Below, in pieces: positions 38,101 through 39,794 of a stretch of DNA of 64,000 bases. Within the stretch, counting starts at the first letter, position 1; each line of letters opens with the position of its first letter. Made by a program: the position numbers. Origin of the DNA: Escherichia coli (GTDB taxonomy: Bacteria; Pseudomonadota; Gammaproteobacteria; Enterobacterales; Enterobacteriaceae); the NCBI RefSeq assembly GCF_030013205.1, contig NZ_CP122648.1. One strand, 5' to 3'.

Positions 38101-39794
38101 GAAAAACAAAGCCGACGTGCTTCGCGCGCAACTTTGCCCGCGCTTCTTCGTCCATATTATGTAGCGGTTGTCCCACCAGACTCACTTCGCCACTGCTGCC
38201 GTCATCCAGCCCGGCGAGGATCGCCAGCAAGGTTGACTTACCCGATCCCGACTCGCCCACCAGTGCGATGGTCTCGCCACGTTTGACAACCAGCTCAACT
38301 CCGGTGAGGATGGAGAGTTCATGCTCCCCCTGACCGACGGACTTCTTAAGATGATGAACTTCAACAATGTTTTCCGCTGGCATTTGCCCTTCCTGTTCCT
38401 GGTCCTGTTAACCTTCCGTGCCGCCGCAGCGGACACGTTATTGATTCTGGGTGATAGCCTGAGCGCCGGGTATCGAATGTCTGCCAGCGCGGCCTGGCCT
38501 GCCTTGTTGAATGATAAGTGGCAGAGTAAAACGTCGGTAGTCAATGCCAGCATCAGCGGCGACACCTCGCAACAAGGGCTGGCGCGCCTTCCGGCTCTGC
38601 TGAAACAGCATCAGCCGCGCTGGGTGCTGGTAGAACTGGGCGGCAATGACGGTTTGCGTGGTTTTCAGCCACAGCAAACCGAGCAAACGCTGCGCCAGAT
38701 TTTGCAGGATGTCAAAGCCGCCAACGCTGAACCATTGTTAATGCAAATACGTCTGCCTGCAAACTATGGTCGCCGTTATAATGAAGCCTTTAGCGCCATT
38801 TACCCCAAACTCGCCAAAGAGTTTGATGTTCCGCTGCTGCCCTTTTTTATGGAAGAGGTCTACCTCAAGCCACAATGGATGCAGGATGACGGTATTCATC
38901 CCAACCGCGACGCCCAGCCGTTTATTGCCGACTGGATGGCGAAGCAGTTGCAGCCTTTAGTAAATCATGACTCATAAAGCAACGGAGATCCTGACAGGTA
39001 AAGTTATGCAAAAATCGGTCTTAATTACCGGATGTTCCAGTGGAATTGGCCTGGAAAGCGCGCTCGAATTAAAACGCCAGGGTTTTCATGTGCTGGCAGG
39101 TTGCCGGAAACCGGATGATGTTGAGCGCATGAACAGCATGGGATTTACCGGCGTGTTGATCGATCTGGATTCGCCAGAAAGTGTTGATCGCGCAGCCGAC
39201 GAAGTGATCGCCCTGACCGATAATTGTCTGTATGGGATCTTTAACAATGCCGGATTCGGCATGTATGGCCCCCTTTCCACCATCAGCCGTGCGCAGATGG
39301 AACAGCAGTTTTCCGCCAACTTTTTCGGCGCACACCAGCTCACCATGCGCCTGTTACCCGCGATGTTACCGCACGGTGAAGGGCGTATTGTGATGACCTC
39401 ATCGGTGATGGGATTAATCTCCACGCCGGGTCGCGGCGCTTACGCAGCCAGTAAATATGCGCTGGAGGCGTGGTCGGATGCGCTGCGCATGGAGCTGCGC
39501 CACAGCGGAATTAAAGTTAGCCTGATCGAACCCGGTCCCATTCGTACTCGCTTCACCGACAACGTCAACCAGACGCAAAGTGATAAACCAGTCGAAAATC
39601 CTGGCATCGCCGCCCGCTTTACGTTGGGACCGGAAGCGGTGGTCGACAAAGTGCGCCATGCTTTTATTAGCGAGAAGCCGAAGATGCGCTATCCGGTAAC
39701 ACTGGTGACCTGGGCAGTAATGGTGCTTAAGCGCCTGCTGCCGGGGCGCGTGATGGACAAAATATTGCAGGGGTGAGTTGAAGTGCGCGCTTAA

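What the first reader, a model, noticed from the sequence alone, without database searches (positions are those of the whole stretch)
38351..38383. Divergent tesA and ybbA coding regions overlap by 33 bp at their 5' ends
With the start codons supported by the protein N-termini, the first 11 codons of tesA (plus strand) and of ybbA (minus strand) are encoded on opposite strands of the same DNA. Each promoter must then lie inside the other gene, which constrains both sequences and suggests transcriptional interference or antisense regulation.
Basis: seen in the sequence. Interest (0 to 1): 0.25.

Follow-up and report, generated by a model that had tools for sequence, protein, structure and literature searches.

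The report
Known head-to-head tesA/ybbA gene overlap
Two E. coli genes that face away from each other, tesA and ybbA, really do share their first 30-33 bases on opposite strands, but the overlap is already annotated and published, so it is a tidy textbook case rather than a discovery.

Summary
ybbA (minus strand) starts at 38383. tesA (plus strand) starts at 38351 or 38354. The codons of the two genes lie exactly opposite each other.

Across 81 Enterobacteriaceae, the ybbA ATG and the second tesA ATG (38354) never change. The first tesA ATG is ACG in 16 species. The conserved overlap is therefore 30 bp, and it is 33 bp only in E. coli-like genomes. No downstream start codon can remove it.

Inside the overlap, synonymous variation disappears: entropy is about 0.13 bit, against about 1.0 bit at third codon positions elsewhere. 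The constraint reaches about 70 nt further into ybbA. There, TTGACA-17-RAGGAT (38283-38311) is identical in all 81 species. It is the best sigma-70-like site in the two-gene region, and a published 454 5'-end record names the same -35 box. I read it as the tesA promoter, sitting inside ybbA codons 25-34. The ybbA ribosome-binding site lies inside the part of tesA that encodes the signal peptide. I could not locate the ybbA promoter.

More distant relatives (Vibrio, Alcanivoracaceae, uncultured lineages) keep the two start codons between 33 bp of overlap and 25 bp of spacer.

None of this is new. RefSeq annotates the overlap, a 2025 PLoS Biology paper on the YbbAP-TesA complex mentions it, and a 2025 NAR paper lists tesA-ybbA as a divergent excludon. 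A regulatory consequence is plausible but has not been shown.

The parts
38351..38383 (.). The stretch shared by tesA (+) and ybbA (-). It is 33 bp if tesA uses its first ATG. The part conserved across species is 38354-38383 (30 bp).
   Evidence: sequence and ORFs. (RefSeq annotates a 30-bp overlap). (77% of the 30 columns are invariant in 81 species, and 38370-38383 is fully invariant).
37697..38383 (-). ybbA coding sequence, the ABC ATPase of the YbbAP transporter. Its start ATG is the CAT at 38381-38383.
   Evidence: The ATG is invariant in 81/81 species. PDB 9GE6-9GE8 chains carry MPAENIVEV... after a tag. An in-frame TAA lies 9 codons upstream, with no start-capable codon in between (direct reading).
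38354..38977 (+). tesA coding sequence from its conserved ATG (E. coli also has an ATG at 38351). Codons 1-26 encode a cleaved signal peptide, and the overlap encodes only its n-region.
   Evidence: Mature TesA chains in the PDB (1IVN, 9GE8 chain T) begin at residue 27.
38387..38394 (-). Shine-Dalgarno sequence of ybbA (AGGAAGGG on the minus strand, 3 nt before the ATG). It is encoded inside tesA signal-peptide codons 13-15 (Pro-Phe-Leu).
   Evidence: Direct reading. The ACAGGAAGGGCAA variants are conserved. Synonymous sites in tesA codons 12-20 are suppressed.
38283..38288 (+). Candidate -35 hexamer (TTGACA) of the tesA promoter, formed by ybbA codons V32-V33-K34.
   Evidence: Present in 81/81 species even though it covers three synonymous third positions. 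Top phylogenetically averaged sigma-70 score. Named as the -35 box of a tesA-associated 454 5' end in PMC2760140 Table S1. It is unique in the window.
38306..38311 (+). Candidate -10 hexamer of the tesA promoter. It is GAGGAT here and AAGGAT in 55 of 81 species, 17 nt after the -35. It is weak (3 of 6 matches, though with the key A2 and T6). The implied transcription start is about 38316-38320.
   Evidence: The transcription start is inferred, not measured here.
38328..38350 (+). Conserved tesA leader and ribosome-binding region (CCCTGACCGACGGACTTCTTAAG, with a weak GGA Shine-Dalgarno at 38340-38342). It lies inside ybbA codons 12-19.
   Evidence: The 33-nt windows starting at 38328-38332 are the most conserved of the 1249 in the two genes. 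Third positions of ybbA codons 12, 13, 15, 17 and 18 are invariant or nearly so.
35286..37700 (-). ybbP, the permease partner. It is co-transcribed with ybbA, and its start overlaps the ybbA stop by 4 bp.
38967..39776 (+). ybbO, the downstream gene of the putative tesA-ybbO operon. Its start overlaps the end of tesA by 11 bp.
   Evidence: The operon statement is from PMC12646458.

Best explanation
This is a genuine, conserved head-to-head overlap of two coding sequences at the junction of two divergent operons, tesA-ybbO and ybbA-ybbP. Their products assemble into one envelope machine, YbbAP-TesA.

What is shown:
- ybbA starts at 38383 and tesA at 38354 (E. coli can also use 38351).
- The shared 30-33 bp encodes the first 10-11 residues of YbbA on one strand. 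On the other strand it encodes the n-region of the TesA signal peptide, which is cleaved off.
- Because codons face codons exactly, a silent change in one gene usually alters the other, so synonymous variation disappears.

What is inferred:
- The overlap arose when the tesA start moved about 10 codons upstream, onto an ATG that lies opposite a His codon (CAT) of ybbA. Relatives with shorter signal peptides have the two start codons back to back (CATG or CATATG).
- The tesA promoter is TTGACA-17-RAGGAT inside ybbA codons 25-34. Transcription would start near 38317 and give a leader of about 35 nt.
- The ybbA ribosome-binding site lies in tesA codons 13-15. The ybbA promoter lies further inside tesA and was not located.
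- The two promoters therefore face each other, and the two mRNAs are complementary over at least about 70-80 nt at their 5' ends.
- The likely consequence is, at most, a modest and asymmetric dampening of the weakly expressed ybbAP operon by tesA transcription, together with a genetic interlock that keeps the partner genes together. An on/off switch is unlikely.
For: Sequence, ORFs and annotation.

Presence in E. coli: 5416 of 5426 complete genomes carry the junction region.

The 80 other Enterobacteriaceae loci are collinear across the junction.

Entropy by codon position: about 1.0 bit at third positions outside the overlap, against about 0.13 bit at all three positions inside it.

Troughs of synonymous entropy lie at ybbA codons 1-18 and 22-34 and at tesA codons 1-20.

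Promoter candidate: it scores 10.05 bits in every one of the 81 species, against a background of -13.8 +/- 4.6 over 12,460 sites. PMC2760140 Table S1 links a tesA 454 5' end to the -35 box gccaCGTTTGACAacca, which its methods place within 60 nt upstream of that 5' end. That sequence is unique, at 38276-38292.

Proteins: YbbA was solved with this N-terminus. Mature TesA begins at residue 27.

Distant loci have spacers of -33, -2, 0, -2, -2, +7, +13, +17 and +25 bp.

Literature: the overlap is noted in PMC12646458, and the pair is listed as a divergent excludon in PMC12288877.
Against: - I found no direct transcription-start or translation-start data for either gene in the papers held.
- A directed 5'-RACE-type primer for ybbA gave no product in PMC2760140.
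- The 454 record rests on a single read in that table's lowest-confidence class for upstream TSSs. Its distance column says -315, which I cannot reconcile with the position of the -35 box. The transcription-factor site table of the same paper is also misplaced for this gene, by about 1 kb.
- The -10 is weak, and the consensus scanner reports no promoter at its default stringency.
- The 81 genomes are related, so invariance is not 81 independent observations.
- No conserved sigma-70-like promoter for ybbA was found.
- Interference and RNA pairing are inference only.
Confidence: 0.78

Rival explanations
1. The overlap works as a true excludon-type regulatory switch. Transcription of one operon would represses the other, through RNA polymerase collision or occlusion and through RNase III cleavage of the paired 5' ends. 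tesA-ybbO and ybbAP would then be expressed reciprocally.
For: tesA-ybbA is one of 16 divergent excludons called in at least 50% of E. coli RNA-seq samples (PMC12288877). The geometry forces facing promoters and complementary 5' ends. Near-zero spacing is kept in distant lineages.
Against: The call was made from coverage overlap alone, which is unavoidable when coding sequences overlap. The paper shows no pair-specific data. TesA and YbbAP co-purify and act as one complex (PMC12646458), so co-expression is expected rather than exclusion. No Rfam element, inverted repeat or direct repeat suggests a dedicated RNA device.
Confidence: 0.15
2. The overlap is an annotation artefact. One gene would really start at a downstream codon, so the coding sequences would not overlap.
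For: An in-frame TTG at 38384 directly abuts the ybbA ATG, and some gene callers start TesA homologues there, giving products of 194-197 aa.
Against: That codon is TGG or CTG in 10 of 81 species, while ATG 38354 is invariant. Starting at 38384 would leave a signal peptide with no charged n-region. ybbA has no alternative start before codon 42, next to the Walker A motif. MNF..VFRWH is kept as an open, conserved frame in all 81 species.
Confidence: 0.03
3. The tight junction is selected as a shared control region. A regulator or a special sigma factor would bind the invariant 38328-38410 block and co-activate both operons, so the conservation would reflect a protein-binding site rather than dual coding plus nested signals.
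For: The invariant block extends beyond what dual coding alone needs. No sigma-70-like ybbA promoter is detectable. The products need to be co-expressed.
Against: There is no palindrome or repeat in 38260-38440. I saw no convincing sigma-E or sigma-32 motif by eye. The block is fully explained by the tesA leader and ribosome-binding site, the two start codons and the ybbA Shine-Dalgarno. The junction sequence is not conserved in distant lineages, only the spacing is.
Confidence: 0.07

Closest known systems
Divergent excludon: neighbouring divergent genes whose transcripts overlap at their 5' ends (concept from Listeria; E. coli map in ExcludonFinder, PMC12288877)
   Same: The genes are opposite-strand neighbours and their 5' transcript regions must be complementary. 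This very pair is in the published E. coli list of 16 divergent excludons.
   Different: Classical excludons overlap through long untranslated regions and show reciprocal expression of functionally opposed genes. Here the coding sequences themselves overlap, the products are partners in one complex, and no reciprocal expression has been shown.
Head-to-head (divergent) overlapping gene pairs in prokaryotic genomes (classification as in PMC3887535)
   Same: Two real protein-coding genes share nucleotides at their 5' ends on opposite strands. The overlap plausibly arose by moving a start codon into the neighbouring gene.
   Different: Nothing essential. It is an unusually well-supported example, because most annotated divergent overlaps are suspected start-codon miscalls. 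That last point is my own knowledge.
Face-to-face promoter interference, for example coliphage 186 pR/pL (my own knowledge, not checked here)
   Same: Two promoters fire towards each other across a short shared stretch, so collision, occlusion or 'sitting duck' interference is possible.
   Different: In phage 186 the interference has been measured and serves a developmental switch. Here one promoter is only inferred, the other has not been located, and no interference has been measured.
Bidirectional promoters with shared, symmetric -10 elements (Warman et al., bioRxiv 10.1101/2020.01.31.928960; seen)
   Same: Divergent transcription arises from a very compact region.
   Different: Those promoters send polymerases away from each other, so their transcripts do not overlap. 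Here the start codons cross, so the transcripts must overlap and the promoters sit on the far sides.

Membership tests
Head-to-head overlapping protein-coding gene pair | Both reading frames encode real proteins | tested here: met
   YbbA has been solved (9GE6-9GE8). TesA has been solved (1IVN, 9GE8 chain T). Both are annotated in 5416 E. coli genomes.
Head-to-head overlapping protein-coding gene pair | The true start codons place the 5' ends of both coding sequences on the same nucleotides | tested here: met
   The ybbA ATG is present in 81/81 species and tesA ATG 38354 in 81/81. The alternative starts are not conserved or would truncate the protein. This is comparative evidence, not direct mapping of initiation.
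Head-to-head overlapping protein-coding gene pair | Purifying selection acts on both frames, seen as loss of synonymous variation | tested here: met
   Entropy is about 0.13 bit at all three codon positions in the overlap, against about 1.0 bit at third positions outside it. Synonymous-codon entropy is 0.01-0.14, against medians of 0.57-0.59.
Divergent excludon | Divergent neighbours with overlapping transcription | tested here: met
   This is geometrically unavoidable when the coding sequences overlap. It is also listed from RNA-seq in PMC12288877. I did not analyse transcript data myself.
Divergent excludon | Reciprocal (mutually exclusive) expression of the two genes | not testable with these tools
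   No expression data are available here. Complex formation by the products argues against it.
Divergent excludon | RNase III processing, or dsRNA detected at the overlap | not tested
   The paper reports p19 dsRNA capture for 40% of divergent excludons overall. The text held does not give a value for this pair, and no supplement is held.
Bidirectional promoter (shared -10, about 18 bp between start sites) | Transcripts diverge from a shared core without overlapping | tested here: not met
   The start codons cross by 30 bp, so the transcripts must overlap. The candidate tesA promoter lies 43-71 nt upstream of ATG 38354, inside ybbA.

The most novel reading that the evidence does not exclude
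The back-to-back placement of the transporter ATPase and tesA start codons holds in 9 of the 10 distant lineages sampled, including Vibrio and Alcanivoracaceae. It ranges from 33 bp of overlap to 25 bp of spacer. This placement could be a selected, ancient design. Each gene's promoter would be nested in the other, so that obligatory 5' antisense pairing or polymerase traffic sets the ratio of the periplasmic hydrolase to its membrane transporter.
Probability: 0.15. Interest if true: 0.45.

Novelty: already known. Interest (0 to 1): 0.2.

Why it matters
It matters modestly. The locus is a clean, well-supported example of a rare class: a divergent overlap of two coding sequences with the expression signals of each gene nested in the other. 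It joins two operons whose products were shown only in 2025 to form one machine.

Three practical points follow:
- Engineers who delete or replace tesA, which is common in fatty-acid production strains, will also remove the ybbA ribosome-binding site and promoter.
- Edits in the first 34 codons of ybbA can hit the tesA promoter.
- The conserved tesA start is the second ATG.

As a discovery it adds little, because the overlap is already annotated and published.

Tried and rejected
- **Start-site data.** I looked for measured transcription-start or translation-start data for tesA and ybbA in the supplements of TRAINSPOTTER, Ribo-RET, Thomason 2015, Conway 2014, SMRT-Cappable-seq, Cappable-seq and ExcludonFinder. 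The files were either not held or contained no hit.
- **The one hit.** Only PMC2760140 had a tesA entry. Its distance field (-315) conflicts with its own -35 box, and its transcription-factor site table for tesA maps into ybbO. I use it only as weak support.
- **Consensus scanner.** It found no promoter at default stringency, because the -10 matches only 3 of 6 positions.
- **ybbA promoter.** A phylogenetically averaged PWM scan found no conserved sigma-70-like promoter for ybbA. The best minus-strand site, TTGACA-17-CAGCGT at 38715-38687, is not conserved. There is no extended -10 on the minus strand. I checked sigma-E-like and sigma-32-like motifs by eye only, and none was convincing.
- **Leaderless tesA.** I rejected this. 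The only -10-like hexamer near the ATGs (TAAGAT, 38347-38352) would start transcription downstream of both.
- **Dedicated RNA or DNA elements.** There are no inverted or direct repeats at the junction and no Rfam match.
- **Other starts.** I rejected the TTG at 38384 and the ATG at 38321 because they are not conserved.

Full report
**What is there.** The window is an E. coli chromosomal segment. It carries ybbP (35286-37700, minus), ybbA (37697-38383, minus), tesA (plus, ending at 38977) and ybbO (38967-39776, plus). The plus strand reads ...CTTAAG ATG ATG AAC TTC AAC AAT GTT TTC CGC TGG CAT TTG CCC.... tesA can start at ATG 38351 or ATG 38354 (MMNFNNVFRWH...). The reverse complement of CAT 38381-38383 is the ybbA ATG (MPAENIVEVHH...). 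The two frames are exactly in register, so each tesA codon lies opposite one ybbA codon. The two Met codons of tesA are the complements of His10 and His11 of YbbA.

**Are the start codons right?** For ybbA there is no real alternative. An in-frame TAA lies 9 codons upstream with no ATG, GTG or TTG in between. The next start-capable codon downstream is GTG at codon 42, directly before the Walker A motif (direct reading). The cryo-EM entries 9GE6-9GE8 carry YbbA with this N-terminus after a tag.

For tesA I fetched 80 Enterobacteriaceae loci. All of them are collinear across the junction. The counts are:
- ybbA ATG: 81/81.
- Second tesA ATG (38354): 81/81.
- First tesA ATG (38351): 65/81, and ACG in the other 16.
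- In-frame TTG at 38384, which would abolish the overlap: TTG 67, TGG 6, CTG 4, GTG 4.
- Upstream ATG at 38321: a four-way wobble.

The conserved start is therefore 38354. RefSeq/PGAP uses the same start. The conserved overlap is 30 bp, and it is 33 bp only where the first ATG exists. Solved mature TesA chains begin at residue 27. The overlap thus encodes only the n-region of a signal peptide that is removed.

**Is it constrained?** Yes, and clearly so.

| Region | Codon position | Mean entropy (bit) | Invariant columns |
|---|---|---|---|
| ybbA only / tesA only | third | 1.06 / 1.01 | 6-7% |
| Overlap | all three | about 0.13 | 73-82% |

Entropy of synonymous codon choice is 0.01-0.14 across the overlap, against gene medians of 0.57-0.59. 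The stretch 38370-38383 is identical in all 81 genomes.

**Where are the expression signals?** The constraint does not stop at the edge of the overlap.

On the ybbA side there are two further blocks of frozen synonymous sites:
- 38328-38350, immediately upstream of the tesA ATG. It contains a weak GGA Shine-Dalgarno sequence.
- ybbA codons 22-34. This block contains TTGACA (38283-38288), then 17 nt, then GAGGAT or AAGGAT (38306-38311).

A sigma-70 weight-matrix scan averaged over the 81 species ranks this site first of 12,460 position, spacer and strand combinations. It scores 10.05 bits in every species, against a background of -13.8 +/- 4.6.

Independently, Table S1 of Mendoza-Vargas et al. 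2009 (PMC2760140) lists one 454 5' end assigned to tesA whose -35 box is 'gccaCGTTTGACAacca'. By that paper's rule, the box lies within 60 nt upstream of the 5' end, at a spacing suitable for a -35. The sequence is unique, at 38276-38292 in the window and at the matching position in an MG1655 derivative. This agrees with a transcription start near 38316-38320.

That record needs caution. It rests on a single read in the table's lowest-confidence class for upstream TSSs. Its distance column reads -315, which does not fit the position of the box. The same paper's transcription-factor site table for this entry maps into ybbO. I treat it as weak support.

On the tesA side, AGGAAGGG (the complement of 38387-38394) sits 3 nt before the ybbA ATG and is conserved. 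Suppression of synonymous sites fades by tesA codon 20. I could not find a conserved sigma-70-like promoter for ybbA. A directed primer for ybbA gave no product in the 2009 study, which suggests low expression. Geometry still requires the ybbA promoter to lie inside tesA.

**Origin.** I looked up the contigs that encode TesA representatives 41-70% identical to the E. coli protein. In nine of ten lineages, a divergent ABC ATPase-permease pair lies immediately upstream of tesA.

| Locus | Lineage | Distance between called starts |
|---|---|---|
| L082 | unnamed | 33-bp overlap |
| L083/L084 | Vibrio | 2-bp overlap (CATG) |
| L087 | Alcanivoracaceae | 2-bp overlap |
| contig encoding P0194 | metagenome, no DNA held | 2-bp overlap |
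| L085/L086 | unnamed | 0 (CATATG) |
| L093 | unnamed | 7-bp spacer |
| L090 | unnamed | 13-bp spacer |
| L089 | unnamed | 17-bp spacer |
| L088 | unnamed | 25-bp spacer |

The tenth locus, L092, is a short contig with a co-directional gene upstream of tesA.

The ATPase N-terminus has the same length in E. coli and in these relatives, but E. coli TesA carries a longer leader peptide. The simplest reading is that an already back-to-back pair became a true overlap in the enterobacterial lineage, when the tesA start moved about 10 codons upstream onto an ATG lying opposite a His codon of ybbA. This is inference.

**How it most likely works.**

Shown:
- The region is dual-coding and under joint purifying selection.
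- The ybbA Shine-Dalgarno sequence is nested in tesA.
- A conserved promoter-like element lies inside ybbA.

Inferred:
- RNA polymerase starts tesA-ybbO near 38317, so the first 66 nt or so of that mRNA are antisense to ybbA codons 1-22.
- ybbAP transcription starts to the right of 38395 and runs towards it. The promoters therefore face each other, and the 5' ends of the two mRNAs are complementary over at least about 70-80 nt.
- This permits polymerase collision, promoter occlusion and RNA duplex formation.

I think a strong reciprocal switch is unlikely. YbbAP and TesA co-purify and act together (PMC12646458). A mild asymmetric dampening of ybbAP, together with a structural interlock that keeps the partner genes adjacent, fits the data better. 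None of this has been measured.

**Comparison with what is known.** The overlap is annotated in RefSeq. McAndrew et al. 2025 state that the tesA-ybbO operon 'partially overlaps' ybbA-ybbP. Sanmartin et al. 2025 list tesA-ybbA among 16 divergent excludons of E. coli MG1655.
- It meets the structural definition of a head-to-head overlapping gene pair, and the transcript-overlap criterion of a divergent excludon.
- The functional criteria of an excludon, reciprocal expression and RNase III processing, are untested.
- It is not a bidirectional promoter of the shared -10 type, because the transcripts must overlap.
- No Rfam family and no repeat occurs at the junction.

For scale, the other divergent gene pairs in the annotated neighbourhood have spacers of 145-366 bp: allA/allS 229, fetA/qmcA 145, and a hypothetical gene with an adhesin gene 366.

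**Verdict.** The feature is already known.

This analysis adds three things:
- a codon-level demonstration of the dual constraint;
- a well-supported location for the tesA promoter inside ybbA;
- evidence that near-zero spacing of the two start codons extends well beyond Enterobacteriaceae.

Interest is low to moderate.

Noticed in passing
window 38753-38782 (+): A perfect TATAAT at 38777-38782 is formed by tesA codons Tyr143-Asn144 (TAT AAT). It is kept in 79 of 81 Enterobacteriaceae although TAC and AAC are synonymous. A weak -35-like CTGCCY lies 18 nt upstream (mean 8.35 bits, second best site in the scan). It sits about 185 nt upstream of the ybbO ATG and may be an internal promoter for ybbO.
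   Followed up: partly
window 37697-37700 and 38967-38977: There are two same-strand overlaps inside the operons. The ybbA stop and ybbP start share 4 bp, and the tesA end and ybbO start share 11 bp. Both are typical of translational coupling.
   Followed up: no
L057 (CACSKA010000001.1, titled Chryseobacterium sp. 18061): This assembly carries an enterobacterial tesA-ybbA locus whose TesA is 88% identical to the E. coli protein. The record is probably mislabelled or contaminated.
   Followed up: no
L041, aligned to window ~38326-38330: Citrobacter amalonaticus AUH_CA_2023_1 has one extra C in the C-run within ybbA codon 19-20. This would frameshift ybbA. A homopolymer assembly error is more likely than a real pseudogene.
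   Followed up: no
L052, aligned to window ~38397: Leclercia sp. 29361 has a 6-bp tandem duplication (CTGATT) that adds two residues to the hydrophobic core of the TesA signal peptide.
   Followed up: no
protein representatives (e.g. P0134, P0138, P0148, P0165): Many TesA homologues in public protein sets are called 230-280 aa long, with the homologous part starting at residue 40-70. This may mean gene callers run the tesA frame back through the antisense of the neighbouring ABC ATPase gene; I did not check these contigs. If so, the overlap lengths annotated for this pair elsewhere would be unreliable.
   Followed up: no
PMC2760140 Tables S1 and S4, tesA entry: The published tesA entry gives a TSS-to-gene distance of -315. 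That conflicts with its own -35 box at window 38276-38292. The PurR and RhaS sites listed for this entry map to window 39310-39362, inside ybbO. This is consistent with a strand-handling error for this minus-strand gene in that dataset.
   Followed up: partly
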